Shown one piece after another: positions 1,459-23,561 of a stretch of DNA of 64,000 nucleotides. The translations under genes and the position numbers were made by a program. The notes under the pieces were generated by a model. That model saw only the letters and a list, made by a program, of their open reading frames with translations, ran no database searches and was not told where the DNA came from. The stretch's first letter is position 1. Each line of letters opens with the position of its first letter. Source of the stretch: Bacteriovoracia bacterium (lineage in GTDB: Bacteria; Bdellovibrionota; UBA1018; CAIPTA01). The DNA lies in NCBI GenBank assembly GCA_050246755.1, contig JBFWVL010000006.1:32001-96000 (forward strand), read 5' to 3'.

Positions 1459-2847
1459 TTAGGCCCCGGTTCCTTGGCCGAGCTTCGCCGCCTTCGACTG
1501 ATTCAGCAGGTATTGCAGGTGTTGGGGCGTCACGCCGAGCCTGCGGGCCGCTTCGATCTTGCTGCCGGAGGCTTCGATGGTTTCCAGGATGTAGGACATT
1601 TTGGCCTTGGACTTCTGCTCTTCCCATTCGGAAAGCCTCATGCTTCCGGGGGAAAATGAATCTTGATCCGAATAGAGCGCCAGGTCCAAGTCTTCAGGAC
1701 GCACCAGGGGGCCTTCCGTTTGGACCAAATGCTTCTCAACGACCGCCGCCAGCTCACGGACATTGCCGGGCCAGGGGTACTTTTTTAACACGTCCACCGC
1801 TCGGCTCTGGAAATAGCGATTTGTCTGATACCGCTTGTTGTAAATTTCCGAGAAGAACGCCACAAGCGGCTCGATATCTTCTACGCGCTCACGCAGCGGC
1901 GGGATCTCAATTTCCGCCACCTTGATCCGGTACATGAGGTCTTCGCGGAAGAGCCCATGTTTCATGAGGTCGTCGATCTTTTTGTGGCTTGCGCAAACGA
2001 TTCGCACGTCGATTTTCCGTGAGAGCCTTGCTCCAATCGGCTCGACCGTTCTTTCTTGCAGGACGCGCAGGAGCTTTGCCTGAAGATCCAAGGAAAGATC
2101 CCCGATCTCATCAAGAAAAATAGTCCCTTTGTCGGCCTGAATGAACTTGCCATCCTGATCCGCGATGGCTCCGGTGAACGAACCCTTTTTGTGTCCGAAC
2201 AAGGTGGATTCAAGCAGCTCCTTAGCGATGGCCGCACAGTTGATGGCAACGAACGGCCCTTTTGCGCGTGGTGAAAGATCGTGGAGAGCGCGGGCGACAA
2301 GCTCTTTTCCGGTGCCGGACTCGCCGTGAATGAGCACGGAAACGTCGCGGGCCTCCGCGATTTTTTTGGTCTTGATAGCGACTTCCGCCATGACCTGGGA
2401 CTGCCCCTCCATCTTGACGGCCGCCAAGTGGCGGCGATTCTCGTTCTTATTCGTCGTTGGGCGGATGGTTTTCAGCAACTCGTCATACCTGTTGCAGTAC
2501 ATCCGCACTTTGCTCAAAAGATCCTGCGGCTCCGAGCTTTTTTCGATGAACTCCACGGCTCCGGCCTGGTAGCTCAGTTTCAAAGCGTCACGGCTGTAAT
2601 CGGCAGAGTACATGGCGACTTGCTGAACTGGATTGATCTCACGAATCAGCTTCGCCACAAAATCGCCAGAGGACTGCGGCATCTGAAAATCCAGCAACAC
2701 GAGGGCAAATTCCTCTTTTTTGACCAGCATCAGCGCCTCATCGGAGGTTTGGGCCGTGCTGACCTCGTAGCCGTTGATTTCCAAATAGCCCTTAGTGGCT
2801 TTGATGTTCTTCAGGTCGTCATCGACCATGAGGATCTTATACGGCAT
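1459..2847 (-). CDS. Sigma54-dependent NtrC/AtoC-type response regulator (REC-AAA-Fis HTH)
   Basis: REC ILMVDDD...LLDFQMP; GESGTGKE; GSFTGA (GAFTGA variant); FLDEIG; WPGNVREL; AARRLGV HTH. Start moved to ATG 2847, which has an AAGGAG RBS. Confidence 0.95.
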   Translation of the reverse strand: MPYKILMVDDDLKNIKATKGYLEINGYEVSTAQTSDEALMLVKKEEFALVLLDFQMPQSSGDFVAKLIREINPVQQVAMYSADYSRDALKLSYQAGAVEFIEKSSEPQDLLSKVRMYCNRYDELLKTIRPTTNKNENRRHLAAVKMEGQSQVMAEVAIKTKKIAEARDVSVLIHGESGTGKELVARALHDLSPRAKGPFVAINCAAIAKELLESTLFGHKKGSFTGAIADQDGKFIQADKGTIFLDEIGDLSLDLQAKLLRVLQERTVEPIGARLSRKIDVRIVCASHKKIDDLMKHGLFREDLMYRIKVAEIEIPPLRERVEDIEPLVAFFSEIYNKRYQTNRYFQSRAVDVLKKYPWPGNVRELAAVVEKHLVQTEGPLVRPEDLDLALYSDQDSFSPGSMRLSEWEEQKSKAKMSYILETIEASGSKIEAARRLGVTPQHLQYLLNQSKAAKLGQGTGA

Positions 2848-4234
2848 GAGTGCTGCTCCTTTCCGTTCCCTCGGAGGGAACTGATACCGTGATCGTGGTC
2901 CCTTGACCCTGTCGGCTTTCGACATGGACCGAGCCATTTCTCTGCTCGCAGATATGCTTAACGATAAAGAGGCCAAGCCCTGTGCCGGTGGCGGGTTTGG
3001 ACGTGAAATCCGGCTCGAAAATCCGATCATACAAATGCGCCGGGATGCCGCACCCCCGGTCGGCAACTGAGAGAACGGAGGATTCCCCCTGTTTTTCGAC
3101 CTTGACGGAAATCTCCGCGCCCGTGTTTGAGGCATCCGCCGCATTTTCGACAAGGTTCTGAAGAATGCGAGCCACTTCCGAACGAGAAAGCGGAGCCAGG
3201 ACACCGGCCGCGGCTGATATATTCAACCGGATATTTTTGTTCTTGATGGATTCATTTTTCTGAAGAGACTCAATCTCCAGTCGAGCGGCATCGGAAAGAT
3301 CCAGGAGATTTTCTCTCTGATCGTTCTCGTTGAGAGTTTTCACCTGGGAGGCAATCATGGAAACTTTGCGAAGTGAGGTCTTAATTTCGTTAAGCGTGTC
3401 ACTGGCCGAGGGATCGACTTTCATCTGCTGATCCAGCGTCGCAAGATATAGTTGAACCTGAGAAACGGGGCTCAATAAGTCGTGCGCGATCCCGCGAAGT
3501 ACCAGCATCTTGGCCTTCTCGCTGGCCTGGCTTTCATAGCGTTCAATCTGGGCGGTCAGCCCCTCTATGGCATCTCGGAGCGGCGCAAGCTCTAAAAAAG
3601 GAGCCAGTGAAAGAGGGCTTTGGCTTTTGGGATTGATCCGCAGCCGCTTCGCCCATTCTTCGACTTCGGAAGCGAGCTTTTTTGACGAGACGCGGGCAAC
3701 GCTTCCGAGGCCAAGCAACATGGCCGCATAGCCAAAAGAGAAAATGAAGAAAACGATGACGACAAAGAGCCAGTCAATTTGCACCGATTTTGAAAGATAG
3801 AGGTAGCCGAAGAGGTTTTCCTTCTTCTCGTCAAAATAGATCGGGAAGAAAATTCGCCCAGGGCCGGTATAGCCATCGAAGCAAGTGAATCCCACGGTGC
3901 CACATGGACGAATAGTGTTTGGTATGATCGAGGTGGAGCGGTAAATATGCTGACGGTCTTGATTGAGAATCAAAGCGTCTTCGCCTTCCCCCAATCCGAG
4001 AACATTGTGGATTTGGTTTTCCACCGCCTTGATGTCACCTTCCAAGATCCGCGAGCGAAAGGCTTCAGCGGCAGCAGTGGCCGATTTCTGAAGATCGGTC
4101 GCCATTTTGTAGCGAGACAGAAAGAACGTGGCCGTCACGGAAATCAGAGCCATCGCTGTAAACCCGATAACGGATTGACGGAGGATGCTCCTTTCCAGGT
4201 AAGACTTGATCGTGGTGACGGCCCTTTTCTTCAC
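2837..4234 (-). CDS. Membrane sensor histidine kinase with periplasmic domain
   Basis: Two hydrophobic segments flanking a soluble domain; H-box IAHDLLSP; N-box NLVENA; DRGCG; F-box FEPDFTSK; GTGLGL. Confidence 0.95.
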   Translation of the reverse strand: MKKRAVTTIKSYLERSILRQSVIGFTAMALISVTATFFLSRYKMATDLQKSATAAAEAFRSRILEGDIKAVENQIHNVLGLGEGEDALILNQDRQHIYRSTSIIPNTIRPCGTVGFTCFDGYTGPGRIFFPIYFDEKKENLFGYLYLSKSVQIDWLFVVIVFFIFSFGYAAMLLGLGSVARVSSKKLASEVEEWAKRLRINPKSQSPLSLAPFLELAPLRDAIEGLTAQIERYESQASEKAKMLVLRGIAHDLLSPVSQVQLYLATLDQQMKVDPSASDTLNEIKTSLRKVSMIASQVKTLNENDQRENLLDLSDAARLEIESLQKNESIKNKNIRLNISAAAGVLAPLSRSEVARILQNLVENAADASNTGAEISVKVEKQGESSVLSVADRGCGIPAHLYDRIFEPDFTSKPATGTGLGLFIVKHICEQRNGSVHVESRQGQGTTITVSVPSEGTERSSTHAV

Positions 4235-5721
4235 TTGAACCTGACTTTCGAGAAGGCAACGGTTTCATCCGTCGTCGGCACTTGGGAAAGATCAATTCCT
4301 TCCTTAGCGATGACGATGGTCGAGTAGTGGAAAATCGGTAGCAAAGATCCTTCTCGGGTGGCTTCCGTGAAGATGCGGCGATACTCTAGGTTTCGTCCCA
4401 GGTGATCGGGGTTCAAACGGGCTTTCTTAACTCTAGCCTGGAAGTCTTTCGATCCCTCGCCCGCGTTGGGAATGATCGGTGGGGTTAGGCCGAAGAAGAA
4501 ACCCATCGCGCCTTCCACGTTCGGATCATTGACCGGCAGTGAACCAGCGACGAGATCATAGTTTCCTGCGGCTCGGGTCTTCTCAAAATCTGCAAGTGAA
4601 ACGAGCTTAAACGTGGGCTCAATGCCGGTCAGCTCCTTGAGCGTGCTGCGGATATTCCGTTGAAGGATCTCACTCATTCGGGACTCGGCGGCGAGGATTT
4701 CCAGCGGCTTCTTGCGAAAGCCTTCCGGCAACTTTGCCTCCGATCCCGCTTTTTGAAACTCGGGATCGAAAAGGATATACCCTTGCGGGAAAAACTGTTC
4801 TGTCGAATTGAAGCCAGCGAGCCCTTTGGTGATCGCGGAGCGGTCGAGGCGCTGGTTCAGATATTGGAACAGCAATCGGCCATTTTCGTTGGTCAGCCGA
4901 GGGCCAGGCGCAAAGAAGAATACTTTGTCCAGATTGCGGTGCCAGACTTCATACTTTGCTTTCTTAAATCTCTCGCTCGTTTCCACGGGAAGCAATGAAG
5001 ACGACCCCAGGAGGTTCGCCCAAGAATCTTTAAGAAAAGATTCTTGGATTTCCTCTCCGGCGGGTGGGCGGCGGATATGCACGGACTTCGGCATATTGGG
5101 CTGCGTGAAGATCCAGAACTTATTCAGCGATAGTTCGATCTCCGCGTTGGAAACGGATTTTAAGGCGAAGGGGCCGGTGGTTGTTGCCAGATCCAGCGAG
5201 TCGCCCTCTTTCACTCGAACGATACCGTACATCGGTTCCGTGAGCTTCTTCACGACTCCGCTTGTGGCCGCCGCGACATTCAACTTGAACACCAGCGTCT
5301 TGGCGTCCTTCGCTTCAATCGCGGTTACATAGTCGTAGAGGGTCTTCAGGGAATCGCCGTGGACTCGTTTGGCGCGGAGCAGGCTTTTTACAGCCTGCTC
5401 CGCCGTGACTGCGCTTCCGTCGGACCATTTGGAAGCCGCTCCGATCTTGAACGTGATCTCTTTTTCTCCGGTAACGCTCCATGATTCGGCAAGGCCGGAG
5501 ACAAGCTCTCTCGTCTTGCTCCAGCCGACAAGTGTTGAGCCGAGGGCGTAAGATAAATCGAGATCCACCAAGGTTCGCACGTTCGCGGGATCAACCGGGA
5601 GTGTGAACGGCATATAGGTTTTTACGGTGTTCTGGTTCTCTTTTGACATGACATTCTCCCCCGGCAAGATACCGGCTACAACCAACAAGAGCGAAATGCA
5701 GAGAGGCTTCCAGGCTTTCAT
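4231..5721 (-). CDS. Family-5 (OppA/DppA-like) solute-binding protein with no adjacent permease
   Basis: Signal peptide; GLAESWSV...KWSDGSAVTAE, TTGPF and LPIFHY motifs typical of SBP_bac_5. Confidence 0.85.
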   Translation of the reverse strand: MKAWKPLCISLLLVVAGILPGENVMSKENQNTVKTYMPFTLPVDPANVRTLVDLDLSYALGSTLVGWSKTRELVSGLAESWSVTGEKEITFKIGAASKWSDGSAVTAEQAVKSLLRAKRVHGDSLKTLYDYVTAIEAKDAKTLVFKLNVAAATSGVVKKLTEPMYGIVRVKEGDSLDLATTTGPFALKSVSNAEIELSLNKFWIFTQPNMPKSVHIRRPPAGEEIQESFLKDSWANLLGSSSLLPVETSERFKKAKYEVWHRNLDKVFFFAPGPRLTNENGRLLFQYLNQRLDRSAITKGLAGFNSTEQFFPQGYILFDPEFQKAGSEAKLPEGFRKKPLEILAAESRMSEILQRNIRSTLKELTGIEPTFKLVSLADFEKTRAAGNYDLVAGSLPVNDPNVEGAMGFFFGLTPPIIPNAGEGSKDFQARVKKARLNPDHLGRNLEYRRIFTEATREGSLLPIFHYSTIVIAKEGIDLSQVPTTDETVAFSKVRFK

Positions 5722-6024
5722 TTAGAAGGGAGCCGTCCAGCAACTCGGTTCGCTTACGGTTTCCAGTCCAGCGGAGTTTCTTCCCCGGAGAACCAGATTT
5801 CCATTTTCATCCACGCCAAGAATAACCGATTCCCAGTCGATACGCACGGTCCTCTCTAAGTCGCGGATCAATTGTTCGTAGCGAGCGCGCTCATCCGTGG
5901 AAAGTCGTTCCAAGGGAGTGAACTTCCCGTTCGGAATGATCGGGACTTGCGCTTTGGCCGCATGGCCCATCCCCAGCAAAGCAGCGGCGACCAAGAGCCC
6001 CAACTTAGGTTTTGCGTTCTTCAT
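5722..6024 (-). CDS. Secreted 100-aa peptide, candidate YcaO substrate or signal precursor
   Basis: AAAGGGGG RBS before ATG 6024; Sec signal MKNAKPKLGLLVAAALLGMGHAAKA; C-terminus SEPSCWTAPF; stop directly abuts the next ATG. Confidence 0.8.
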   Translation of the reverse strand: MKNAKPKLGLLVAAALLGMGHAAKAQVPIIPNGKFTPLERLSTDERARYEQLIRDLERTVRIDWESVILGVDENGNLVLRGRNSAGLETVSEPSCWTAPF

Positions 6025-6038
6025 ATACTTTCCCCCTT

Positions 6039-7067
6039 TCAGGAAACGATATGCGGTTGAGTATTTAGAGTCCGTTCCTTCATGGAGACAGAAAAATTCC
6101 TCTTCTCTGCCTGTTTCAAAACTTTTTGAATGTCGGTGCTTCCCCATGCCAGTTCAAAAGCTCTTTCGTGAGTGGCAAATCCAGCGATGACCGGATGCTC
6201 CAGGGCTTGGTGAAACTTGAAATCGGACGCTTCCGACCGGAGAAGGTCGAGTCGTTCGTTCCAGGATTGCTCTGCTTCAAGCCAGGATGTTGCTGGGCCA
6301 AACATCCATGCGGGAAATGGCTCATGATGGGCGTAGTAAACCGCGTGAGCACCCGGCTGCACTCGAACTCTTTCTTCACGCCGAAGAAGGATTTGCGAGT
6401 CATTCCAAAATGAGCGGCGCAGGGCATGGTGGGCGGCCCGGCAGGTTTCGGCGATGGCGGATTCGATGCTGTCCTGCAATTCCGTCTTCGTCGAGTGGCC
6501 GGATACTCCGTAACCGGCGGCATTCAGAAAGAGACAAGTCACCGAGGGGCCAAGACCCTCGGTGGAAATCAGGAGCTTCATTTCGGGAAACTCGGACTGC
6601 GACAACTCGTTCCGCACCCAATGCAAGATGGACTGCGGCCATTCGCTCGGTGTGATTTCGAGAAACGGAACCGACAGATACCATTGAGCAAGAACGGCGT
6701 CGCGTTCCACCAGCTCAAGAATCGCTCCGGTTCTTGCTTGCGGAAGGGTTTCGTGCGCCGCCCAGCCATTGCTCGTTCCTAGATTTTCGTGGTTGAGTCC
6801 CTTGTGCCAGCGCATCAGGCTCGCACGTTCGATCAACTCCATGATCGCTTTCGTCATGGCAAGATCCTCTGTCTTGGCCTCTCCGCAAGCCCGAACCTCC
6901 ATGCCATCCAGGGAGGCTTCGATATTGATGATGAACTTGGAGAATCGGAAGCCTGCTGGCCGAGTGCCGCGAGAAACGCGCACGTCTCTAAACCCGAATG
7001 GAAGCGACTCCCACCAGGGAGCGGAGGCACCGCTTTGAGAATCTGGAATGGCGTTATCTAATCGCAT
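6039..7067 (-). CDS. YcaO-family protein (stand-alone, ~342 aa)
   Basis: CGEAKTEDLAMTKAIMELIER and TSNGWAAH...AILELVERDA match YcaO ATP-binding motifs; SAIAE motif; start placed at ATG 7067, downstream of the sigma54 promoter. Confidence 0.85.
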   Translation of the reverse strand: MRLDNAIPDSQSGASAPWWESLPFGFRDVRVSRGTRPAGFRFSKFIINIEASLDGMEVRACGEAKTEDLAMTKAIMELIERASLMRWHKGLNHENLGTSNGWAAHETLPQARTGAILELVERDAVLAQWYLSVPFLEITPSEWPQSILHWVRNELSQSEFPEMKLLISTEGLGPSVTCLFLNAAGYGVSGHSTKTELQDSIESAIAETCRAAHHALRRSFWNDSQILLRREERVRVQPGAHAVYYAHHEPFPAWMFGPATSWLEAEQSWNERLDLLRSEASDFKFHQALEHPVIAGFATHERAFELAWGSTDIQKVLKQAEKRNFSVSMKERTLNTQPHIVS

Positions 7068-7127
7068 GAAATACCAAGCCTTCTTGTTGATAGACCGCCT
7101 TGTTTCAGGCGCTCGGGTTTCCCTATG

Positions 7128-7144
7128 AGCAAGGACGGGGCCAA
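7128..7144 (-). promoter_or_regulatory. Sigma54 (-24/-12) promoter of the YcaO-peptide-SBP-HK-RR operon
   Basis: Minus strand TTGGCCCCGTCCTTGCT = GG-N10-GC, ~60 bp upstream of the ycaO start. Confidence 0.75.
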
Positions 7145-7227
7145 GTCGTAAAAGTGCTGAAAACCTGGGTTTTACGGCGAAATCCTGCATTTTTGTTGAT
7201 CTGCGGGTGCAGTTGGTGGTGCGGAAA

Positions 7228-7515
7228 TTCAGGATTTCTGAATCGGCCTGTGCGATGCGCGGTCGCCTGTAAACAATAACTGCGTGATATGTTTTACGTT
7301 TTCCACACGAAAGGCCCTGGTGCCACAAATTCAGGAACTCTGAATCGACATATAATTTTTATAGGCCGAGTGTCCGCGAGCGCACATGAGGCTGTTGTTT
7401 CGATGACAAATTCAGGATTTCTGAAGGGCTTCAGGTTTCCTGAATGTCATCGCAAGCCGTTGATTTCAAACTCGTAGTTTATTGTTTATCCAATCCGCTA
7501 TTCAGATTTTCTGAA
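7228..7515. promoter_or_regulatory. Five TTCAG-N5-CTGAA palindromes (candidate enhancer/UAS sites)
   Basis: Copies at 7228-7242, 7330-7344, 7411-7425, 7430-7444 and 7501-7515. Confidence 0.8.
7453..7465 (+). promoter_or_regulatory. IHF-consensus site
   Basis: CAAGCCGTTGATT matches YAANNNNTTGATW (reverse of WATCAANNNNTTR). Confidence 0.55.
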
Positions 7516-7595
7516 CTGAATCGGCGCTTTTCGAGAGCGCGAAAAATCCGATTTGTCTTTTTGCTTCTGAGACTTAGGTCACTTCAGCATTTTTC

Positions 7596-7610
7596 TGGCA
7601 TCGCCTTGCA
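7596..7610 (+). promoter_or_regulatory. Sigma54-like promoter of the tra operon, spacer one base short
   Basis: TGGCATCGCCTTGCA has good TGGCA and TTGCA boxes but GG-N9-GC spacing. Confidence 0.4.
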
Positions 7611-7666
7611 CTTTTAGAAGGTGAAAGGCCGCTCATTCCAGCGGGCCTGTTGGAAAGGAAAACGAA

Positions 7667-7891
7667 ATGTCCAAGTCCTATCTCACCCAATGCCCTCGCT
7701 GCGGCACTCGAAGCTACGAACAGCTTCACACCCATGGTCACTGCATCGAATGCCTCTACTCAAACGACCTCGCTCCACAGAGCGACAAGCGCGACTTCCT
7801 CACTCTGCGGGAAGCTGAGGCGCTGATCGAGCCGTCCGAGATTCATCAAATGCGAAGAGATCAAAAAAAGATTTCGGGAGCGGCGTCGTGA
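7667..7891 (+). CDS. Small zinc-ribbon-like protein
   Basis: CPRC...HCIEC; AAAGGA RBS. Confidence 0.7.
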   Translation: MSKSYLTQCPRCGTRSYEQLHTHGHCIECLYSNDLAPQSDKRDFLTLREAEALIEPSEIHQMRRDQKKISGAAS

Positions 7892-8077: not shown

Positions 8078-8314
8078 ATGAAAAATTCCGAAACGACTTT
8101 GCGAAAGAACGACTGCGGGCGCTGGGAGGTCGGCACCCACGAGCTGACTTCGGGAAGTGTCCTTGAAATTCAGATTGACGGCCACTGGATCAGCGGCGTC
8201 ATCGAACACTGGCACGACAACTATTACTGGTTCAGCCGCCGCGACGGTGTTCCCGTCGTGCTTCACTCCGGCATTTATGCTCGTCTCCCAGACTCGAACG
8301 AAAGGAGGTTCTGA
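8078..8314 (+). CDS. DUF5348-like small protein
   Basis: ELTSGSVLEIQIDGHWISGVIEH...YYW resembles DUF5348; start at ATG 8078 after GGGGG. Confidence 0.6.
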   Translation: MKNSETTLRKNDCGRWEVGTHELTSGSVLEIQIDGHWISGVIEHWHDNYYWFSRRDGVPVVLHSGIYARLPDSNERRF

Positions 8315-8376
8315 AAACGTAGTTGAGAATCAATGAGGGGCTTTGAGGGTTCATTGTTTCAAATACGGAGTTAAAT

Positions 8377-8730
8377 TTGTCAGAAAATAAAATCGAACAA
8401 AAGCAGAAATCGGAAAGGCTGAATCTCTACTGGCTGTGCGGCCAGACGGGACGAAAGCATCCCGCCGGGGTCGCATTCTTCAACGAAGAACAAGGCGACT
8501 ATCGGCTGAAGATCGACGTGATGCCCGACGATAAGACGTTTTTCCTGAAAACGATCTCGTCGAGCGATGACGTGACTTACTACCGCGTGGAGGCGGCCGT
8601 GAAAAAGGCCGGGCGCGTGGTCCACAGGGCGGAAGTCGGTTCCGGCTACGCCAAGAAGGAAGATCCCACCATCTACATGGACATCGGCCCGTTCTCGCGG
8701 ACCCTTGTTCTTGAGCAACAACAGGCTTGA
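8377..8730 (+). CDS. Hypothetical protein, possible tandem DUF736-like ssDNA-binding fold
   Basis: GGAG-N6-TTG start; two similar units PAGVAFF..YRLKID and EVGSGYA..IYMDIG. Confidence 0.55.
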   Translation: MSENKIEQKQKSERLNLYWLCGQTGRKHPAGVAFFNEEQGDYRLKIDVMPDDKTFFLKTISSSDDVTYYRVEAAVKKAGRVVHRAEVGSGYAKKEDPTIYMDIGPFSRTLVLEQQQA

Positions 8731-9032
8731 AGCAGGATCGTTTTCTGATGGTTCTCTTCGCGGGCTTTGCCGTTCTTATGGTGCTTTGCCCGGAACTCGC
8801 GCTCGCGCAGTTCTCGGGTGGTGCCCTGGAAAGCAAAGTCAACGGAGTGACGAGCGGGCTTATCAACTTTCTCTTGCCCGCCGCGAGCGTGATCGGACTG
8901 ATTTACAGTGCGATCCTCGCCGCGACCGGCGACGCCTCGGCGAAAGCCAGGATGACCACCATCGCAATCTGTAGCGTGGTGGGAATGCTGGCTCCTCTCA
9001 TCATTCGCTGGCTGCAAGGGATGGTGAACTGA
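8727..9032 (+). CDS. VirB2/TrbC-like pilin
   Basis: Signal ending PELALAQ, then two hydrophobic helices; first gene of the T4SS cluster. Confidence 0.75.
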   Translation: MKQDRFLMVLFAGFAVLMVLCPELALAQFSGGALESKVNGVTSGLINFLLPAASVIGLIYSAILAATGDASAKARMTTIAICSVVGMLAPLIIRWLQGMVN

Positions 9033-9316
9033 TGCTCAAGGCATCGACGGTTCACCGAAATCTGGATGCGAAGTTTAAGATCGGCGGCGTCGAAGCCGCC
9101 GATCTGTTGGCCGTTCTACTCACGGGTGCCGTGATGAATCTGATCTTTGGGCGGCTGTCCATTGGCCCCATTTTCATCTTCGGCATTCCGGGTCTTCTTT
9201 TCTGCGCTCTCTACTTTGGGAAGCGCGGAAAACCGGAGGGCTATCTTATGCACGCACTCAAGTTTTTTATTTCATCCGGCGAACTCAGAGCCGGTGAAAT
9301 CGAGGATTCCGTCTGA
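9032..9316 (+). CDS. VirB3/TraL-like membrane protein
   Basis: 94 aa with two TM helices, between pilin and VirB4; KRGKPEGYL tail. Confidence 0.7.
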   Translation: MLKASTVHRNLDAKFKIGGVEAADLLAVLLTGAVMNLIFGRLSIGPIFIFGIPGLLFCALYFGKRGKPEGYLMHALKFFISSGELRAGEIEDSV

Positions 9317-11742
9317 AGAAATCTCCCATTGCGGGGAAAGTGCCGTTCTTCCGGTTCGACGATCATCTGATGGTCTATCAAGACGGCTCGATGGGCGTCG
9401 GTTTCAGGCTCGGCGGATTCGATAGCAGTTGCGCCTCGGTGGACTCGATCAATGCGTTTTGCCAGAAGATCGAAAACTTTCTCGCCGGGCTCTCCGAGGG
9501 CCTGCGAATCCAGGTTTTCTACCGGCTGACGAACAACGCCTATGACGTGGTGGAGCAACACCGGGCGGTTTCGAGTGACAGTGCGCTTATCTATCAACCG
9601 ATCCGCAGCGCCCGCATCGCGTTTTTTGAAGAGAAGCTGGAATCTGGCCGGTTTTTTATGCCGGAAATCTATCTTTTCGTGCGCAGCCAGCCGCTTCAGC
9701 TCAAAAGGCGCAAGTTTTTCGAGAAGAAAGAGCGGTTTGAAGGGTTCCCGCCGGAGCAGTTTCGCGCCCATCAGGAACGGTTTGCCATTCTCGTCTCGCA
9801 GGTGGAGGCGGCGCTGCGCTCGGCGGCGATTGCGCCCAGCCGTCTGTTAAAGACGGATTGGTTCAATCTCTGCTTCTCGTACTTCAACATGGAGCGGGCC
9901 GAGATCATCGGTTGCCCCAGCTTGAGGGAGCCGACGGACGCGCTCGCTCCGAGCCTTGGTGCGCAACTGGCGCTCACGGACATTTCGGTTTCCGAGAAGC
10001 ACCTGAAGATTGGTGGGCTGTTCTTCCGCGTCGTCACGATGGGGATTTTACCGGAGGGCCAGACGGTCGCCTCCATGATCGAAAGCCTGATGAAACTGCC
10101 ATTCCACTTCTGGATGTCGCAGAACATTCACACGCTGGAACAGCGCAAAGAGATCGAAAAGCTCGAACTCATGCGCCGGATCGCAAGCTCGATGGCCTCG
10201 GGAAGCAAGAACGTCTCCGACATCGAAAGCGAATCGAAGCTGTCGAACCTCGAAGACCTGCTCCGCGAGGTCATGACCGGATCGGAGCGGCTGGTGTCTT
10301 CCGACCTGAACGTGATCTTTTGGGCGGAATCCCAAGAGGAGCTGGAGCAAAAGACGGAAGAAATCTTGCGGGCGTTCCGCGCCACCGGCCAGGCCGAAGG
10401 TCTGGTCGAGACGTTCGGCCTGGAGGACGCCTTTTTTAAGGCCGCGCCCAGCGTGTGCGAAGGGTTCCGCCATAAGCGCATGAAGACGAGCAATTGCGCT
10501 CATCTGATGCCCTTATACGCGGCCTGGATGGGCAATAAGCGGCCGGTGGTGCTGCTCACGAACCGCGAGGGAGCGCCCTTTGCCATCGACCCGTTCGCAC
10601 CGGAATTACCCAACTGGAACGGTCTGATTTTCGGCGGTAGCGGCTCAGGGAAGTCTTACTCGATTTCCCAGATGATGCTCCAGTTTTCCGGCCAGAAGTA
10701 TGGCGGCAAGCCGCCGAAGATCGTGTGGATCGACAACGGGGCCTCCAGCGAAAAGCTGATCGAGGTCATGGACGGCGAGTTCATCGACCTGAACCTCAAT
10801 TCGGGCATCCGCCTGAATGTGTTCGACCTTGAGGCCGGAGAAGCGAAGCCCACCGCCACCAAGATCAAACTGATCCTGGGGTGCCTTGAGCTGATCCTGA
10901 AGGACGACGACAAGGTGGGGCTCCCGAAGCGGGACAAGGGCCTGCTCGAAGAGGCCATTTTTTCCTGCTACCGCAAAACCGGTGAGCGCATTCCGCAGCT
11001 CTCCGATCTGAGGGAGATCCTGCGCGAGCATCCGGTGACGGATATGCGCAAATACGCCGACATCCTGTTCTCGTGGACTGGAGAAACGGCGTTCGGTCGG
11101 ATGCTCGATGGCCCCAGCAACGTGAAGCTCACCAAGGACTTGGTGTCCATCGAGATCAAGGGGCTGGAGAACTACCGGGATCTGAAGGACATCTTTCTGC
11201 TGCTGCTCACTTCGTACATCAAGGACGAAGCGGCCAGCGACTTGGCCCGCCCTTATCTGCTGATCGTGGATGAAGCACAACGGCTGTTCAAGTCGGGCTC
11301 TCCGATGGGAAGGGAGTTCGCCATAGATTCCTTTCGCGTTTTTCGTAAGTACAACGCCGGAATCTGGTGCATCTCGCAGAACTATAAAGATTTTTTGTCG
11401 GACCCGGATCTGGCAGATTCTCTCATGCCTAACACCACGTTCGTTTTCATCCTGCGGCAGCGGAAGATCGACTGGAACGACTTCAAGGAAACCTTCGACT
11501 TCGACGAAGCGGTTGTGGAGGCGGCGAAAAGTCTGGAGATCGTCAAGCGCAAGTTCTCCGAGTTTTTGCTGATCCAGGACGAAAATATCGCAGTTTTGCG
11601 TCTGGAATCTGACCCACTCAGTTACCGCATCTGTACCACCGACGGAAACGAAAAATCGGAGGAGAAGGCTCTTCGGGAAAGATATCCCGACCGCCCTCTC
11701 GTGGAAATTTTAAGTGAGCTTGCTCAAGGAGATTCGCATTAA
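9313..11742 (+). CDS. virB4: VirB4/TraC-like conjugation ATPase
   Basis: GGSGSGKS Walker A, LLIVDEAQ Walker B, RKYNAGIWCISQ. Start may be CTG 9313 (GAGGA-N6) or GTG 9340. Confidence 0.9.
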   Translation: MKKSPIAGKVPFFRFDDHLMVYQDGSMGVGFRLGGFDSSCASVDSINAFCQKIENFLAGLSEGLRIQVFYRLTNNAYDVVEQHRAVSSDSALIYQPIRSARIAFFEEKLESGRFFMPEIYLFVRSQPLQLKRRKFFEKKERFEGFPPEQFRAHQERFAILVSQVEAALRSAAIAPSRLLKTDWFNLCFSYFNMERAEIIGCPSLREPTDALAPSLGAQLALTDISVSEKHLKIGGLFFRVVTMGILPEGQTVASMIESLMKLPFHFWMSQNIHTLEQRKEIEKLELMRRIASSMASGSKNVSDIESESKLSNLEDLLREVMTGSERLVSSDLNVIFWAESQEELEQKTEEILRAFRATGQAEGLVETFGLEDAFFKAAPSVCEGFRHKRMKTSNCAHLMPLYAAWMGNKRPVVLLTNREGAPFAIDPFAPELPNWNGLIFGGSGSGKSYSISQMMLQFSGQKYGGKPPKIVWIDNGASSEKLIEVMDGEFIDLNLNSGIRLNVFDLEAGEAKPTATKIKLILGCLELILKDDDKVGLPKRDKGLLEEAIFSCYRKTGERIPQLSDLREILREHPVTDMRKYADILFSWTGETAFGRMLDGPSNVKLTKDLVSIEIKGLENYRDLKDIFLLLLTSYIKDEAASDLARPYLLIVDEAQRLFKSGSPMGREFAIDSFRVFRKYNAGIWCISQNYKDFLSDPDLADSLMPNTTFVFILRQRKIDWNDFKETFDFDEAVVEAAKSLEIVKRKFSEFLLIQDENIAVLRLESDPLSYRICTTDGNEKSEEKALRERYPDRPLVEILSELAQGDSH

Positions 11743-12439
11743 ACGAACGAAGACTTGCCTGGTGGCGGCCCTCATTATGGCCTGCGCGTTGCGCCCAGCG
11801 CCCGCGCTGGCGTTCACCGATGGTTCGGGATGGGCTGCGGTTGGATACCTCATTAAAATTCTGGAGGAAAACTACCGGCGGTATGTGCAGCTCAAGGCCA
11901 TGATCGACACGGCGAACGGTCACTATGACTATATCCGGGCGCTCAATCGCGGCCTGGACAATTCCATCGGTCTTTTGGAGGCGCTGCCCATCAAGGACGA
12001 GAAGGTTCTGGCGGAACTGAAGAACTTCAAGGAAGCGGTCGCCCGCGTGGAACTGCTCTATGGAAAAATTCCGCAGAGCCCGGATGAAGCCCTGCATCTC
12101 CTGCACGATCAATCGGTGGCGGAAAGCCTGCGGATGGCAAACTCCTTCAAGGATTTCTCCGACACGCAGGAGAAAAATTCGCTGTTGATCGCCGCCCAAG
12201 CGCGGGAGGCATCGCCCAAGGGCGCAGCCCGTATGCAGGCCGAGACAAGCGCGGAGATCCTGCGCACTCTCTCGCAGTTGATTCGCCTTAACACGCAGAT
12301 GCTCAAGCTCCAAAGCGAGCAGATCGCAATGGCGAATAAGTCCGCGAAAGACGAAGTGGCGGGATTTCAGAAGATCAACCAAGACCTTGGAAGCGGATTT
12401 TCCAAGTTCAAGCCGGACATGAAATTCATCGTTTTCTAA
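11738..12439 (+). CDS. VirB5/TrbJ-like secreted helical protein
   Basis: Signal peptide KRTKTCLVAALIMACALRPAPALA; coiled-coil character; position between VirB4 and VirB6. Start ATT 11738 (AAGGAG-N6) or GTG 11714. Confidence 0.65.
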   Translation: MKRTKTCLVAALIMACALRPAPALAFTDGSGWAAVGYLIKILEENYRRYVQLKAMIDTANGHYDYIRALNRGLDNSIGLLEALPIKDEKVLAELKNFKEAVARVELLYGKIPQSPDEALHLLHDQSVAESLRMANSFKDFSDTQEKNSLLIAAQAREASPKGAARMQAETSAEILRTLSQLIRLNTQMLKLQSEQIAMANKSAKDEVAGFQKINQDLGSGFSKFKPDMKFIVF

Positions 12440-13387
12440 ATGTTTGAATATCTAGGAAGCGTTGGCGCGGAACTCCACGCGCAGATGGTTCAAATGTACT
12501 GGATTCTTTTGGTTCCATTCGTCGTGTTCCTGTTCGTGTTGGAGGTCATCAAGGACGACAACCCGAATTTGCGCGATTTGTTCCGCCGGATCGTGTTTTC
12601 GGTGCTGCTGCTGCTCACCTTTGACTGGACCCTTCAGACGATTGCCGTGGTTGGCGACGCCGTGACGGAGAAAATCAACGGACTGCAACGACTCTCCGAG
12701 GTTCTTCAGAATCTCGGGCCGAACTACTCCGGCAAGGATAGCTGGTTCAATGTGCGGGAAACGATTCTCTATGTCTTCAGCGTCGCTGCCTACCTGATCG
12801 CCTATCTTGGCTTTTTCGTGGCAACGGCGTTGACCCATTTCGTCTGGACGATCTTGTATGTGGCGGCACCCTTGATGATTCTCATGTACGTCAGTCGCCA
12901 TACGGAGCGCGTGACCATGAGTCTCTACAAGGGATTGGTGCAGGTCGTGATCTGGAAAATTTTGTGGTCGATTCTCGGCGTATTGCTGCTCAAGCTCGCC
13001 ATGCAGCCGGAGGTCACGGGGCTTGAGGATTATATCATGTCCATCGTGGTGAATCTTTGCATCGGCTTCTCGATGCTGTTCATCCCGATTGCCACGAGAT
13101 CCTTGATTTCGGATGGGATGTCGTCGGTTGCAAGCTCGCTTGCGGCGGTTCCGGCGATTGCCGCCGGGGGCGCGGTCAAGATGGCGGCGGCCAAGTACGG
13201 AGGAAAAATCGCGGGTGCCGCCGCGTTCGCGGCCAAGCCCGCCACGAACCCCATCGCGGGGCGCGTGGAGATGATGAAGGACCGACTGCAACCACGATTC
13301 GAGCAGGCAAAGAAGGCTTACGGAGCCATCGGGCTCCCGCAGGAAATTCTCAAAAAAAGAGCCAGAAAAGAAAAGAGGAATAAGTGA
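12440..13387 (+). CDS. VirB6/TrbL-like polytopic membrane protein
   Basis: Multiple TM helices and an Ala/Gly-rich C-terminal tail. Confidence 0.75.
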   Translation: MFEYLGSVGAELHAQMVQMYWILLVPFVVFLFVLEVIKDDNPNLRDLFRRIVFSVLLLLTFDWTLQTIAVVGDAVTEKINGLQRLSEVLQNLGPNYSGKDSWFNVRETILYVFSVAAYLIAYLGFFVATALTHFVWTILYVAAPLMILMYVSRHTERVTMSLYKGLVQVVIWKILWSILGVLLLKLAMQPEVTGLEDYIMSIVVNLCIGFSMLFIPIATRSLISDGMSSVASSLAAVPAIAAGGAVKMAAAKYGGKIAGAAAFAAKPATNPIAGRVEMMKDRLQPRFEQAKKAYGAIGLPQEILKKRARKEKRNK

Positions 13388-13977
13388 ACGAAAAATCTAA
13401 GAACACGATCCCGAATATCTGGACCGCGCAAGAGAACCTGATCCATTTTTATCGGATTCTCTCTGCGGGTCTGGGCGGGCTCGCCGTCATTTTGCTGGTG
13501 GTGGCCGTCGCATTCGGTTTTCGAGATCCGATTGTCGTCGTGAAATCGGATGATGCGCAGGAGTTTTTTGTGAGCCGCCGAGCGCCGGTTTCCATTGAAA
13601 AGAAGGATGTCGAAAATATCACGCGGCGTTTTCTCGATGCGCTGTATGTCTGGCCGGAGTTTAACGGCCAGGCGCTCGCCAAAGAGATCGCGCCTTATGC
13701 TGAAGAAGCCTTGGTGGGAAAAATCGTCGAAACGCAGGTGCTCAAGTACGGAAAGGACTTCAAGGGCAAGAAGCTCGCTCAGGAGCTGTCCTTCGTCAAT
13801 GTGACTGTTCAGGAGGATCGCGTGGTCTGTAACTTCGACCGCATCCTGAAGATCGAAGGGATACCGCTGGTCATTCCAACCGAAGTCACGCTGTCGATGC
13901 TGCGCGGAAGTAGCACACGGGAAAATCCGATGGGCGTCTTCGTCTCTGGTATTTTAGAAAATGAAGGCGCGAAGTAA
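13384..13977 (+). CDS. VirB8/TraE-K-like bitopic protein
   Basis: Single N-terminal TM; C-terminal RENPMGVFV motif typical of the VirB8 family. Confidence 0.75.
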   Translation: MNEKSKNTIPNIWTAQENLIHFYRILSAGLGGLAVILLVVAVAFGFRDPIVVVKSDDAQEFFVSRRAPVSIEKKDVENITRRFLDALYVWPEFNGQALAKEIAPYAEEALVGKIVETQVLKYGKDFKGKKLAQELSFVNVTVQEDRVVCNFDRILKIEGIPLVIPTEVTLSMLRGSSTRENPMGVFVSGILENEGAK

Positions 13978-14713
13978 GTTGTGGGGTTTTGTCGGACTGT
14001 TGATGCTGATTTCGATTGAAGTCGGAGCAATGGTCCCGCCGGGTGACAAACGAACTATCCTCACCTCCGGGGAGAAGGTTTACCCGATCCAATATCGGCT
14101 CGGCACGAGTACGATTTTGTATTTCGGACTGCGCCCCGAGACGGTGATCTGCGGGAACAAAAACTATTTCAACATCGAGAAGATCAAGGAGGGAATCACG
14201 ATTCAACCTCTGTCGAATTTCTCCACTAACCTGACGGTTCTCGCTCAGGGTCGGCGCTATTTGTTTTTCCTGACCCCCGCGAGCGGTCGCCCCGATGGGT
14301 TCGTGGAAGTGAAATGGGTTCCACCCGGTCAGGCCAGATCCGTCAAAGCGTTGGCGAAGCATGACGGCGAAGTGACCCGAGAGCTCGGACAGAAGACCAA
14401 GATCGGCACCGCCGTTGAATTTTCCATTTTGCGCGAGAAGGCATTGGACAAAGGGAAGCGCCGGATCTTCGAGATCGAGATGAAAAACCTCGGCGGGAAA
14501 GCCATTCCCGCAAACCAGTTTGAGGTAGTGGCCTCTATCGCGGGCGTCCCTCTCGCCCGCCAGGTTGTCGTCTGGGAGGGCGACGACCTGAAGGAGAAAG
14601 GCAAGCTCCGGGGCCGCGTGATCGTCTCGGGCCACGATGGAAAGCCTCTGAGTCTCGTTGTCGGCTATCTCGGCAAGAGCACCAAGCTCATCATCAAGGG
14701 GGGCCGCAATTAA
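13961..14713 (+). CDS. VirB9/TrbG-like secreted protein
   Basis: Signal peptide; VYPIQYRLGTSTILYF and STNLTV...RRYLF motifs. Confidence 0.75.
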   Translation: MKARSKLWGFVGLLMLISIEVGAMVPPGDKRTILTSGEKVYPIQYRLGTSTILYFGLRPETVICGNKNYFNIEKIKEGITIQPLSNFSTNLTVLAQGRRYLFFLTPASGRPDGFVEVKWVPPGQARSVKALAKHDGEVTRELGQKTKIGTAVEFSILREKALDKGKRRIFEIEMKNLGGKAIPANQFEVVASIAGVPLARQVVVWEGDDLKEKGKLRGRVIVSGHDGKPLSLVVGYLGKSTKLIIKGGRN

Positions 14714-19360: not shown

Positions 19361-19537
19361 TTGCTCTTTGACAATTCATGGTTAGATACGAAAGAGGCAG
19401 CGGTGTACTTGCGGACCTCTCCGAAGCAGATTCGGAGCTGGGTCTATCAAGGGAAAATCAGGGCCTACAAACTTCTCGGACGTAGTTACCGATTCAAAAA
19501 ACAGGATCTCGACTCCTTGCTGAAAGGGGTCGGATAA
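19361..19537 (+). CDS. xis: Excisionase (HTH_17/MerR-like), not in ORF track
   Basis: Reads LLFDNSWLDTKEAAVYLRTSPKQIRSWVYQGKIRAYKLLGRSYRFKKQDLDSLLKGVG; TAA overlaps the integrase ATG; start uncertain. Confidence 0.85.
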   Translation: MLFDNSWLDTKEAAVYLRTSPKQIRSWVYQGKIRAYKLLGRSYRFKKQDLDSLLKGVG

Positions 19538-20688: not shown

Positions 20689-21021
20689 ACCCCTTCCATT
20701 CCCTGCCAGGTCGTGCTAACTATTTGAATTCATTGGCCGGGGATTACCCCGACCAATTTATTCTTCACGCAGTTAGCACAATCCCAAAATGGGCATCGTT
20801 CTAAGTAGTTAAATTCTCTCAGAGTCCATATTCGGTTTTTTGAGAATGTCACTCTACGTCCCCTGAGAACCCTGTAGTTCCCTGCCAAACCAATTGAGTA
20901 AAGTGCCGAAAAGAATGCTCCGCAAGGCAATCAATGGCGGAGGAAATCTAACCTGTGCGCTATCGACATCCACTTTAAAAAAATCATTTAGTTGCGGAGA
21001 GCCCACCAGCGCGAGGACGAC

Positions 21022-23552: not shown

Positions 23553-23561
23553 TGGAGCCTA

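What the first reader, a model, noticed from the sequence alone, without database searches (positions are those of the whole stretch)
1459..7610. Candidate YcaO-peptide quorum-sensing circuit wired to ICE conjugation genes
Seen: five tightly packed co-oriented genes, namely YcaO (6039-7067), a secreted 100-aa peptide (5722-6024), an orphan OppA-like SBP, a membrane histidine kinase and a sigma54 response regulator. They sit behind a canonical sigma54 promoter (7128-7144) and are divergent from the T4SS operon across a region with five palindromic sites. Established: YcaO enzymes ATP-activate peptide backbone amides in RiPP pathways, SBP-kinase pairs such as LuxP-LuxQ sense signals, and agr-like loops encode precursor, processing enzyme and two-component system in one autoinduced operon. 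Inference: the modified peptide is exported, bound by the SBP and sensed by the kinase; the regulator then activates its own operon and the tra genes. I do not know of a described YcaO-based, sigma54-output peptide quorum system on a Gram-negative ICE.
Basis: partly seen in the sequence, partly recalled or inferred. Interest (0 to 1): 0.92.

Follow-up and report, generated by a model that had tools for sequence, protein, structure and literature searches.

The report
Modified-peptide signalling module on a conjugative element
A mobile DNA element of a predatory-bacteria lineage carries its own five-gene set that seems to make a chemically modified secreted peptide, sense it, and switch itself and probably its DNA-transfer machinery on, and related elements hold the same set, sometimes with a different peptide-modifying enzyme.

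Summary
Five tightly packed minus-strand genes encode a 342-aa YcaO, a 100-aa protein with a signal-peptide-like N-terminus, an orphan family-5 SBP, a two-TM histidine kinase and a sigma54 response regulator. They sit behind a correctly spaced sigma54 promoter and five exact TTCAG-N5-CTGAA palindromes, divergent from a T4SS/integrase element.

Comparison adds much. YcaO, small ORF and SBP recur in all 26 loci examined in Bdellovibrionota; kinase and regulator follow wherever the contig continues. T4SS genes lie in the held flanks of 14. The small protein keeps a C-terminal [ST]-C in 20 of 26 loci. Palindromes differ between elements and track the regulator's recognition helix. The same genome holds four such T4SS elements: two share this gene order, one has a permuted order, and one has a radical SAM/SPASM enzyme in place of YcaO.

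This supports a private modified-peptide, SBP, kinase and sigma54 circuit belonging to the element. Not shown:
- the modification itself;
- ligand binding by the SBP;
- release of the peptide beyond the periplasm, so "quorum" is unproven;
- activation of the tra genes. The tra-side motif looks like a sigma54 promoter but its spacing is 1-2 nt short.

Seven literature searches found no description. I rate it a new variant of a known kind.

The parts
1459..2850 (-). Sigma54-dependent response regulator (receiver + AAA+ bEBP with a GSFTGA loop + Fis-type HTH)
   Evidence: Pfam Response_reg, Sigma54_activat (E 1.5e-65), AAA_lid_14 and HTH_8. NtrC/AtoC-like in NCBIfam, below the equivalog cut-offs.
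2837..4234 (-). Membrane histidine kinase with two TM segments and a periplasmic loop of about 105 aa
   Evidence: HATPase_c E 9e-25 and a weak HisKA hit. Hydrophobic segments at residues 21-40 and 145-180.
4231..5721 (-). Orphan periplasmic family-5 (OppA/NikA-like) solute-binding protein
   Evidence: SBP_bac_5 E 3e-20. N-terminal hydrophobic segment. Conserved next to the small ORF in 26 of 26 loci.
5722..6024 (-). 100-aa precursor-like protein: signal-peptide-like N-terminus, small conserved domain, C-terminal tail EPSCWTAPF
   Evidence: No Pfam or NCBIfam family. 12 homologues; P93, S94 and C95 are invariant. An equivalent ORF lies in 26 of 26 loci.
6039..7067 (-). Minimal standalone YcaO-domain enzyme (342 aa)
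   Evidence: PF02624 E 9e-17. AF2 model pLDDT 91.4. All 41 Foldseek PDB hits at E<=1e-3 are YcaO entries. ExxER motifs, SNGWAAH and the C-terminal PHIVS are invariant or nearly so in 36 family members.
7128..7143 (-). Sigma54 (-24/-12) promoter of the five-gene operon
   Evidence: TGGCCCCGTCCTTGCT with GG-N10-GC spacing. An equivalent promoter lies upstream of YcaO in 15 of 16 loci.
7228..7515 (.). Five exact TTCAG-N5-CTGAA palindromes (7228-7242, 7330-7344, 7411-7425, 7430-7444, 7501-7515): presumed enhancer (UAS) sites of the regulator
   Evidence: 5 of the 7 exact sites in the genome. The position is conserved but the sequence differs in other elements, and it tracks the regulator's HTH.
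7596..7610 (+). Conserved tra-side motif TGGCATCGCCTTGCA, sigma54-like but 1 nt short
   Evidence: Found at the same place in 11 distinct loci. In 10 of them the next ORF is the Zn-ribbon gene; L048 was not checked.
7667..7891 (+). Zn-ribbon small protein, first gene of the T4SS leader operon
   Evidence: CPRCG...HCxxC. Conserved first ORF after the motif. No family at the thresholds used.
8078..8730 (+). DUF5348 protein (8078-8314) and conserved 117-aa ORF (8377-8730) ahead of the pilin gene
   Evidence: Pfam DUF5348. Homologues of orf117 lie next to VirB2 in many loci.
8727..15638 (+). T4SS operon: VirB2-like pilin, VirB3-like, VirB4, VirB6-like, VirB9-like and VirB10-like
   Evidence: Pfam TrbC, CagE_TrbE_VirB/TraC_F_IV, TrbL, CagX and TrbI. 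Several hits fall below the curated cut-offs.
15689..17903 (+). FtsK/SpoIIIE-type coupling protein (15689-17173) and Replic_Relax protein (17163-17903)
19537..20688 (+). Tyrosine integrase at the right end of the element
   Evidence: Phage_integrase E 2.4e-18. GC content falls beyond about 20.7 kb.

Best explanation
I read this as a self-contained signalling module that belongs to a conjugative element. Steps are marked as shown or inferred.

1. Shown from sequence: one sigma54 promoter drives five genes.
2. Inferred: the cytoplasmic ATP-dependent YcaO modifies the backbone at the conserved Pro-Ser/Thr-Cys site in the C-terminal tail of the small protein. The most likely product is a thiazoline, since the nucleophile is built in and no TfuA or dehydrogenase was found in the genome.
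3. Inferred: the protein leaves the cytoplasm through Sec by way of its signal-peptide-like N-terminus.
4. Inferred: in the periplasm, of the producer and possibly of neighbours, the modified tail is the ligand of the dedicated orphan family-5 binding protein.
5. Inferred: the loaded binding protein acts on the periplasmic loop of the kinase, which sets the phosphorylation state of the sigma54 activator.
6. Inferred from architecture and covariation: the activator binds the five element-specific palindromes and fires its own operon, giving positive feedback.
7. Inferred, weaker: the same enhancer region also controls the divergent T4SS leader operon.

Whether the signal is shared between cells (quorum sensing) or stays private (a bistable switch) is left open.
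For: Module conservation:
- YcaO, a small ORF and the SBP recur in 26 of 26 loci. Kinase and regulator follow wherever the contig continues.
- The same five parts appear in a permuted order (RR, peptide, SBP, YcaO, HK) in a second element of the same genome and in 3 further loci.
- A third element replaces YcaO with a radical SAM/SPASM enzyme and keeps peptide, SBP, kinase and regulator.

Substrate link:
- [ST]-C lies near the C-terminus in 20 of 26 small ORFs. Four of the other six have S-S at that place.
- P-S-C is invariant in 13 of 13 close relatives.

Enzyme:
- The fold is YcaO.
- Acidic ExxER motifs, SNGxAAH and the C-terminal tail are invariant or nearly so.
- The profile aligns to the TruD/LynD cyclodehydratase motif.
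- No TfuA or SagB-type gene was found in the genome, which is 95.7% complete.

Autoregulation:
- A sigma54 promoter lies upstream of YcaO in 15 of 16 loci, and directly upstream of the regulator gene in 3 of 5 regulator-first modules.
- rpoN is present.

Enhancer sites:
- Recurrent palindromes (2-5 copies) lie in 14 of 25 upstream regions. Their sequence differs between elements and tracks the regulator's recognition helix.

Link to transfer:
- T4SS genes lie in the held flanks of 14 of 26 loci.
- A sigma54-regulator homologue lies within 14 kb upstream of 27 of 35 further T4SS loci chosen by VirB4 similarity alone. The genome holds about 23 strong bEBP genes in 3.55 Mb, so chance would give roughly 1 in 10.
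- In L056 two perfect palindromes and a correctly spaced sigma54-like promoter lie directly upstream of the T4SS leader gene.
Against: - A Sec-type signal on a RiPP precursor is unusual (recalled). YcaO would have to act before export.
- No exporter, leader protease, RRE or E1-like partner is encoded. TIGR03604 scores 59 bits against a cut-off of 219.
- The mature long-type protein is about 74 aa, too large to cross an outer membrane by diffusion (general knowledge). Signalling between cells is therefore doubtful.
- 6 of 26 tails lack Cys.
- The tra-side motif has GG-N8/9-GC spacing in the window and in most relatives, and no canonical sigma54 promoter lies on that side.
- 4 loci with 8 kb or more of upstream flank show no T4SS gene with these queries: L031, L032, L034 and L049.
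- Palindromes were not found by my method in 11 of 25 upstream regions.
- All loci are relatives within one phylum, so the counts are not independent.
- No expression, chemistry or binding data exist.
Confidence: 0.5

Rival explanations
1. The SBP-kinase-regulator part senses an outside cue, such as peptides from prey or from the cell wall. The YcaO-modified protein is an output of the operon rather than its signal: for example a bacteriocin, a mating or exclusion factor, or a periplasmic helper of the T4SS.
For: - Family-5 SBPs commonly bind exogenous peptides or nickel. The best NCBIfam hits are NikA and OppA, far below their cut-offs.
- No exporter is encoded.
- The long-type product is a small folded protein with a conserved core, not a short peptide.
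- Other T4SS elements of this family pair the regulator and kinase with quite different genes, such as an MFS transporter or a hydrolase.
Against: - The small ORF always sits directly between the maturase and the SBP, or just upstream of the SBP, including in the permuted and the radical-SAM versions.
- The SBP is orphan and, in the window and in L056 and L057, abuts or overlaps the kinase gene.
- Two co-resident elements with the same gene order (the window's and L042) have distinct tails, SBPs (38% identity) and DNA sites. That fits private channels better than one shared external cue.
Confidence: 0.22
2. The components are the same but the sign is opposite. The modified peptide is an inhibitor that reports that neighbours already carry the element and shuts transfer off. 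This is the logic of PhrI on ICEBs1 or iCF10 on pCF10 (both recalled).
For: - Element-encoded peptides that repress transfer are the known pattern in Firmicutes (recalled).
- Co-resident elements carry distinct tails and DNA sites.
Against: - Peptide and regulator lie in one operon behind a promoter that needs the activator. An inhibitory signal would therefore shut off its own synthesis.
- Nothing in the sequence gives the sign of the response.
Confidence: 0.13
3. YcaO does not act on the small protein. It modifies another protein, as E. coli YcaO thioamidates ribosomal protein uL16, or it is not catalytic here. The small ORF would then be an unrelated secreted protein.
For: - The best structural matches are protein-modifying archaeal YcaOs of similar size, 6PEU and 6CI7.
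- A YcaO acting on a ribosomal protein is described in PMC13063428; I read passages only.
- No RRE domain is present.
Against: - The [ST]-C tail is conserved next to YcaO in 20 of 26 loci.
- A radical SAM/SPASM peptide-maturase-like enzyme substitutes at the same position beside a small secreted ORF.
- The clade is small and tied to these modules: 98 cluster representatives at E<=1e-30 out of 1.84 billion.
Confidence: 0.1

Closest known systems
Staphylococcal agr system (AgrB-AgrD-AgrC-AgrA); recalled, not tested here
   Same: The precursor peptide, its modifying enzyme, a membrane kinase and a response regulator lie in one operon that the regulator itself switches on.
   Different: - No protein family is shared with AgrB, AgrD or AgrC.
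- The maturase is a cytoplasmic YcaO.
- The ligand is read through a separate periplasmic binding protein.
- The output is a sigma54 activator.
- The host is diderm and the module is carried by a conjugative element.
Binding-protein-dependent two-component systems: LuxP-LuxQ, and AioX-AioS-AioR (SBP + kinase + sigma54 regulator); recalled
   Same: An orphan periplasmic binding protein is encoded beside a kinase with a periplasmic loop. In AioXSR the regulator is also a sigma54 activator that acts on a -24/-12 promoter.
   Different: Those systems sense a small molecule made elsewhere (AI-2, arsenite). Here the operon also encodes a candidate ligand and the enzyme that would modify it.
Peptide control of conjugation in Firmicutes: pCF10 (cCF10/iCF10 with the OppA-like PrgZ) and ICEBs1 (RapI-PhrI); recalled
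   Same: A mobile element carries its own peptide signal. In pCF10 it also carries its own OppA-family binding protein, and the signal decides when transfer genes are expressed.
   Different: - Those peptides are unmodified.
- They are imported and act on cytoplasmic receptors.
- They use no YcaO or radical SAM enzyme, no kinase and no sigma54.
YcaO RiPP pathways: azoline-forming TOMM/cyanobactin enzymes (TruD, LynD, McbD), standalone YcaOs, and archaeal thioamide-forming YcaOs
   Same: - YcaO fold.
- The SNGxAAG...ELVERD motif aligns to TruD and LynD.
- A small ORF with Ser/Thr-Cys lies next to the enzyme.
   Different: - At 342 aa this is among the smallest YcaOs.
- No E1-like or RRE partner, no dehydrogenase and no TfuA.
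- The precursor has a Sec-type signal instead of a classical leader.
- The neighbours are signalling genes, not transport or immunity genes.
- The NCBIfam SagD model scores far below its cut-off.

Membership tests
YcaO superfamily (PF02624) | Sequence match above the curated cut-off | tested here: met
   61.7 bits against a cut-off of 25.7. Only profile positions 113-289 are matched.
YcaO superfamily (PF02624) | YcaO fold | tested here: met
   AF2 model pLDDT 91.4. All 41 Foldseek PDB hits at E<=1e-3 are YcaO entries; the best are 6PEU and 6CI7, with TM about 0.53.
YcaO superfamily (PF02624) | Conserved acidic ATP/Mg-binding motifs (that these motifs bind ATP/Mg is recalled) | tested here: inconclusive
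   E63, E77, E80, R81, E118, E121, R122 and D123 are invariant in 36 family members. The motif aligns to TruD and LynD. I made no residue-by-residue superposition on a nucleotide-bound structure.
TOMM / SagD-type azoline-forming cyclodehydratase (TIGR03604) | Score above the NCBIfam cut-off | tested here: not met
   59 bits against a cut-off of 219.25.
TOMM / SagD-type azoline-forming cyclodehydratase (TIGR03604) | E1-like/RRE partner and SagB-type dehydrogenase | tested here: not met
   No such gene lies in the locus. No TIGR03605 match in the genome, which is 95.7% complete.
TOMM / SagD-type azoline-forming cyclodehydratase (TIGR03604) | Adjacent precursor with Cys/Ser/Thr in the core | tested here: met
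   [ST]-C tail in 20 of 26 small ORFs. P-S-C invariant in 13 of 13 close relatives.
YcaO-TfuA thioamide pathway | TfuA partner | tested here: not met
   No PF07812 match in the genome; the control search rang in Methanosarcina. TfuA-independent thioamidation is known in archaea (recalled), so the chemistry is not excluded.
Sigma54-dependent promoter | -24 GG and -12 GC separated by 10 nt, with rpoN and a bEBP present | tested here: met
   TGGCCCCGTCCTTGCT. rpoN. The regulator has Sigma54_activat. Genome-wide, TGGCAY-Nn-TTGCW counts 26 for N5 against 3-10 for other spacings.
Sigma54-dependent promoter (tra side, 7596-7610) | GG-N10-GC spacing | tested here: not met
   GG-N9-GC in the window, and N8 or N9 in relatives. 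Canonical spacing appears only in L056.
Integrative conjugative element | T4SS, coupling protein, relaxase-type protein and integrase | tested here: met
   Several T4SS Pfam hits fall below the curated cut-offs. Relaxase function is inferred from a weak Replic_Relax hit.
Integrative conjugative element | Defined ends (att repeats), excision | tested here: inconclusive
   One 14-nt direct repeat at C6:8117 and C6:52746, with a chance expectation of about 0.09. No excised form was sought.
Peptide quorum-sensing system | Signal released from the cell and sensed in a density-dependent way | not testable with these tools
   No exporter is encoded. I found no RNA or culture data.

The most novel reading that the evidence does not exclude
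Conjugative elements of Bdellovibrionota each carry a private, orthogonal RiPP-based communication channel. The channel consists of a swappable maturase (YcaO, radical SAM/SPASM, possibly others), a Sec-exported precursor, a dedicated binding protein, a kinase and a sigma54 activator with its own DNA sites. Up to four co-resident elements in one genome could then decide on transfer independently. If so, this would be the first YcaO-made signalling molecule and the first peptide pheromone control of conjugation in a diderm lineage.
Probability: 0.3. Interest if true: 0.9.

Novelty: new variant of a known kind. Interest (0 to 1): 0.78.

Why it matters
YcaO enzymes are known for making antibiotics and cofactor-like protein modifications, not signals. 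Peptide control of conjugation is known from Firmicutes, with unmodified imported peptides. Here a compact, widely conserved module joins four things:
- a RiPP-type maturase and its likely substrate;
- an SBP-dependent kinase;
- a sigma54 activator;
- a conjugation machine, all in a diderm phylum.

The element-specific DNA sites and the interchangeable maturases hint at insulated channels.

If confirmed, it would add a new role for YcaO chemistry. It would also give a testable route to how conjugative elements time their transfer in predatory bacteria, and a set of naturally orthogonal peptide, receptor and promoter parts. The hypothesis can be tested by reconstitution in a laboratory host, because every part is encoded in about 6 kb.

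Tried and rejected
- **Complex prediction.** SBP residues 26-496 (alignment A3) with the mature small protein (A2, residues 27-100) returned no verdict: score 0.00, controls not run. It counts neither for nor against binding.
- **Expression.** No RNA holder is listed for window 1459-7700. Two runs guessed to be RNA, and flagged by the tool as probably DNA, gave short contigs over parts of the kinase, SBP and pilin genes. Contigs show no starts or strands, so I draw nothing from them.
- **ESM Atlas** for the 100-aa protein gave no usable feature hit and only structural rows with TM below 0.45.
- **Selection.** Against the near-identical element L044, every gene tested has dN/dS below 0.2. dS is raised at SBP (0.73) and the regulator (0.42) against 0.11-0.25 in T4SS genes. 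That pattern looks like recombination, not positive selection. Differences are not concentrated in the kinase's periplasmic loop. This gives no support for diversifying selection.
- **Other palindrome sites.** The two other genomic TTCAG-N5-CTGAA sites lie inside ORFs without a sigma54 promoter and are rejected as targets.
- **First palindrome scan.** It used a 6-nt spacer and found nothing. The spacer is 5 nt.
- **Flank checks.** Four loci without T4SS hits were scanned with Pfam. L031 lies beside ParB/RepB genes and a serine recombinase. L034 lies beside an RHS protein. L049 and L032 lie beside transport genes.
- **Literature.** Searches found no paper describing this module. Genome-neighbourhood tables in YcaO surveys, such as those of PMC13063428, may list this clade.

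Full report
**1. What is there**

The minus strand of window 1459-7067 holds five ORFs. Their junctions are a 14-nt gap, a direct abutment, a 4-nt overlap and a 14-nt overlap.

Pfam and NCBIfam give, in order of transcription:
- a 342-aa YcaO-domain protein (PF02624, E 9e-17);
- a 100-aa protein of no family;
- a family-5 solute-binding protein;
- a histidine kinase;
- a response regulator with receiver, Sigma54_activat and Fis-type HTH domains.

The kinase has two hydrophobic segments (residues 21-40 and 145-180) around a loop of about 105 aa. The SBP has an N-terminal hydrophobic segment. YcaO and the regulator have none. The N-terminus of the small protein reads as a Sec signal; this is by inspection only.

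Sixty-one nt upstream of the YcaO start lies TGGCCCCGTCCTTGCT, with the canonical GG-N10-GC spacing. The genome has rpoN and about 23 strong bEBP genes. The motif TGGCAY-N5-TTGCW is enriched in the genome: 26 copies against 3-10 for other spacings.

Five exact TTCAG-N5-CTGAA palindromes lie between this promoter and the divergent operon. They are 5 of only 7 exact copies in 3.55 Mb. The other two lie inside ORFs.

The divergent side encodes a Zn-ribbon protein, a DUF5348 protein, a conserved 117-aa ORF, VirB2/3/4/6/9/10-like proteins, an FtsK-type coupling protein, a Replic_Relax protein and a tyrosine integrase. To the left the element continues with a defence cargo.

**2. Is it a unit?**

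Homologues of the YcaO are about 330-345 aa. Where a source names the organism, it is mostly Bacteriovoracia or Bdellovibrionaceae; one record is labelled Pseudomonadota.

*Loci gathered.*
- A scan of 401 genomes of the phylum found the YcaO in 26, the window's own genome included.
- I fetched 15 of these loci.
- I fetched 12 more from the species-representative collection. Two of those duplicate earlier loci.
- With the window this makes 26 distinct loci.

*Gene content.*
- YcaO, a gap and the SBP are present in 26 of 26.
- Kinase and regulator follow wherever the contig continues.
- In every gap there is a small ORF with a hydrophobic N-terminus.

*T4SS adjacency.*
- T4SS genes lie in the held flanks of 14 of 26 loci: 12 divergent and 2 downstream in the same orientation.
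- Four loci with 8 kb or more of upstream flank show none with these queries. One of them sits beside ParB/RepB genes and a serine recombinase.
- The remaining 8 loci have short flanks.

*Shuffling.* Module type and T4SS lineage are mixed. L030 shares 63% regulator identity with the window but only 28% VirB4 identity. L035 shares 51% VirB4 identity over a partial match but only 34% regulator identity.

**3. The same genome holds four such elements**

| Element | Gene order of the module |
|---|---|
| Window | YcaO, peptide, SBP, HK, RR |
| C1, about 1.31 Mb (L042) | same order |
| C6, about 146-164 kb (L056) | RR, peptide, SBP, YcaO, HK, upstream of and co-oriented with its T4SS |
| C5, about 220-240 kb (L057) | RR, radical SAM enzyme, 112-aa ORF with a signal-like N-terminus, SBP, HK |

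The peptide of L056 ends in ...SVICY. The radical SAM enzyme of L057 matches SPASM-type peptide maturases in NCBIfam, below their cut-offs.

A maturase of a different class in the same slot is the strongest single argument that the small ORF is a modified-peptide precursor, and that peptide, SBP and kinase work together.

*Wider sample.*
- I sampled 37 further T4SS loci, picked only by VirB4 similarity and not fetched before. Two had almost no flank, which leaves 35.
- A sigma54-regulator homologue lies within 14 kb upstream in 27 of the 35. Chance would give roughly 0.1 from the bEBP density.
- The permuted YcaO module is present in 3.
- The others carry different genes between regulator and kinase, such as MFS transporters, SBP-like lipoproteins, or a hydrolase with a secreted small protein.

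**4. The candidate substrate**

Tails read, for example, ...EPSCWTAPF, ...QPTCWGH, ...QPSCVGGL, ...GSGATCG and ...GGGASCG.
- [ST]-C lies within the last 14 residues in 20 of 26 loci.
- Four of the other six have S-S at the equivalent place.
- L032 ends ...HPTSI and L040 ends ...GTGGTGI. The L040 ORF assignment is uncertain because its gap is 1.4 kb.
- Two length classes exist: 47-60 aa, which is a signal followed by a Gly/Ser-rich tail, and 94-117 aa, which has a conserved small domain.
- In the window's subfamily P93, S94 and C95 are invariant in 13 of 13 sequences and the tail barely varies. Tails therefore differ between distant modules, not between close ones.

**5. The enzyme**

- In 36 family members the two acidic ExxER motifs and the SNGWAAH stretch are invariant, and the C-terminal ...PHIVS is invariant or nearly so.
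- The AF2 model is confident, with pLDDT 91.4.
- All 41 significant PDB matches are YcaOs. The nearest are the minimal archaeal thioamide-forming enzymes.
- The sequence profile aligns to the TruD/LynD cyclodehydratase motif.
- The genome shows no TfuA and no SagB-type dehydrogenase.
- With a built-in Cys nucleophile, azoline formation is my first guess.
- A thioamide or a YcaO-type cleavage is not excluded. That these activities exist I take from reference lists and passages in PMC13063428 and from the abstract of PMC12455567.
- The clade is small: 98 cluster representatives at E<=1e-30 and 271 at E<=1e-10, out of 1.84 billion.

**6. The wiring**

*Own operon.*
- A correctly spaced sigma54 promoter precedes YcaO in 15 of 16 loci.
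- One precedes the regulator gene in 3 of 5 regulator-first modules.

*Palindromes.*
- Recurrent palindromes (2-5 copies) lie in 14 of the 25 upstream regions long enough to scan.
- Their arms differ between elements: TTCAG-N5-CTGAA, TWCAG, TACAG, CACAG, TTCAA-N5-TTGAA, GCGCR-N6-YGCGC and GGACG-N6-CGTCC.
- The arms go with the class of the regulator's second HTH helix: HLQYLL, HLRHLL, xLHYF and STLRxx.
- The loci are related, so this is suggestive rather than statistical.
- The window's element and its co-resident L042 differ in sites, in tails and in SBP (38% identity).

*The tra side.*
- The window has TGGCATCGCCTTGCA at 7596-7610, 57 nt before the Zn-ribbon gene.
- The motif TGGCAY-N3/4-TTGCA recurs at this position in 11 distinct loci. 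It accounts for 13 of 17 hits in 1.92 Mb scanned, counting two duplicate loci. L048 was not checked for the following ORF.
- Its spacing is 1-2 nt shorter than a sigma54 promoter allows (recalled rule). No canonical promoter lies on that side.
- Palindromes sit about 80-120 nt upstream of both motifs.
- In L056 the equivalent motif has canonical spacing, with two perfect palindromes 100 and 180 nt upstream.
- Control of the tra operon by the regulator is therefore plausible but not established.

**7. Reading**

The best-supported model is a private loop: modified peptide, SBP, kinase and sigma54 activator, with positive feedback, belonging to the conjugative element and probably gating its transfer genes.

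I do not endorse 'quorum sensing'. The precursor uses Sec, no exporter is encoded, and the long-type product is about 74 aa. The loop may therefore close in the producer's own periplasm and act as a bistable switch.

The rivals are set out in the rival explanations:
- an external cue with the peptide as output;
- an inhibitory sign;
- another YcaO substrate.

**8. Novelty**

Seven full-text searches found no description. The library lacks most subscription journals, and supplements were closed.

Each idea has a precedent: autoinduced peptide operons, SBP-dependent kinases with sigma54 output, and peptide control of conjugation. Those precedents are recalled. The combination, the YcaO or radical SAM maturase, and the diderm host are new to my knowledge. 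I therefore rate it a new variant of a known kind, with high interest.

Noticed in passing
own genome: C1:1306-1325 kb (L042), C5:220-240 kb (L057), C6:145-164 kb (L056), besides window 1-20.7 kb: One 3.55-Mb genome carries four T4SS elements of the same family. Each has its own sigma54 regulator, so 4 of about 23 strong bEBP genes belong to such elements.
   Followed up: partly
window 7612-7666, and the same place in L030, L039 and L042: A conserved GGTGAGAGG... stem-loop lies in the 5' leader between the tra-side motif and the Zn-ribbon gene. No U-run follows it. Its role is unknown.
   Followed up: no
L056:9042-9407; similar small ORFs in L030, L067 and L070: Small proteins resembling sigma-70 region 4 (Sigma70_r4_2, E 3e-6 in L056) are encoded in the T4SS leader operons of sister elements. 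I saw none in the window, where a DUF5348 gene sits at that place.
   Followed up: no
window 20746-20759 and C6:8117-8130 (outside the window): A 14-nt direct repeat, ACCCCGACCAATTT, lies 58 nt past the integrase gene and again 103 nt past another integrase-like gene 44.6 kb to the left. These may be att sites. The chance expectation is about 0.09.
   Followed up: partly
L001 (C6:12001-32000) and window 527-1360: The cargo left of the module is a defence island: an Eco57I/MmeI-like methylase fusion, a radical SAM protein, a Z1-domain protein, DUF2779, McrBC, AbiEii and ParB/RepB. A 277-aa STAND-like NTPase lies just downstream of the regulator.
   Followed up: partly
window 15689-17903: The coupling protein is of the FtsK/SpoIIIE type and is followed by a Replic_Relax protein. 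By recall this pairing is typical of monoderm conjugation systems. Here it sits beside VirB9/VirB10-like outer-membrane parts.
   Followed up: no
L044 compared with window 1-17 kb: A near-identical element occurs in another metagenome-assembled genome, with T4SS proteins 96-99% identical. Synonymous divergence is raised over SBP, kinase and regulator (dS up to 0.73, against 0.11-0.25 elsewhere). This suggests that part of the module was replaced by recombination.
   Followed up: partly
window 21022-30848: Just outside the element lie an SDR, a pyridine-nucleotide disulphide oxidoreductase, a TetR regulator, an RND efflux pump with an outer-membrane factor, and an IucA/IucC-like gene.
   Followed up: no
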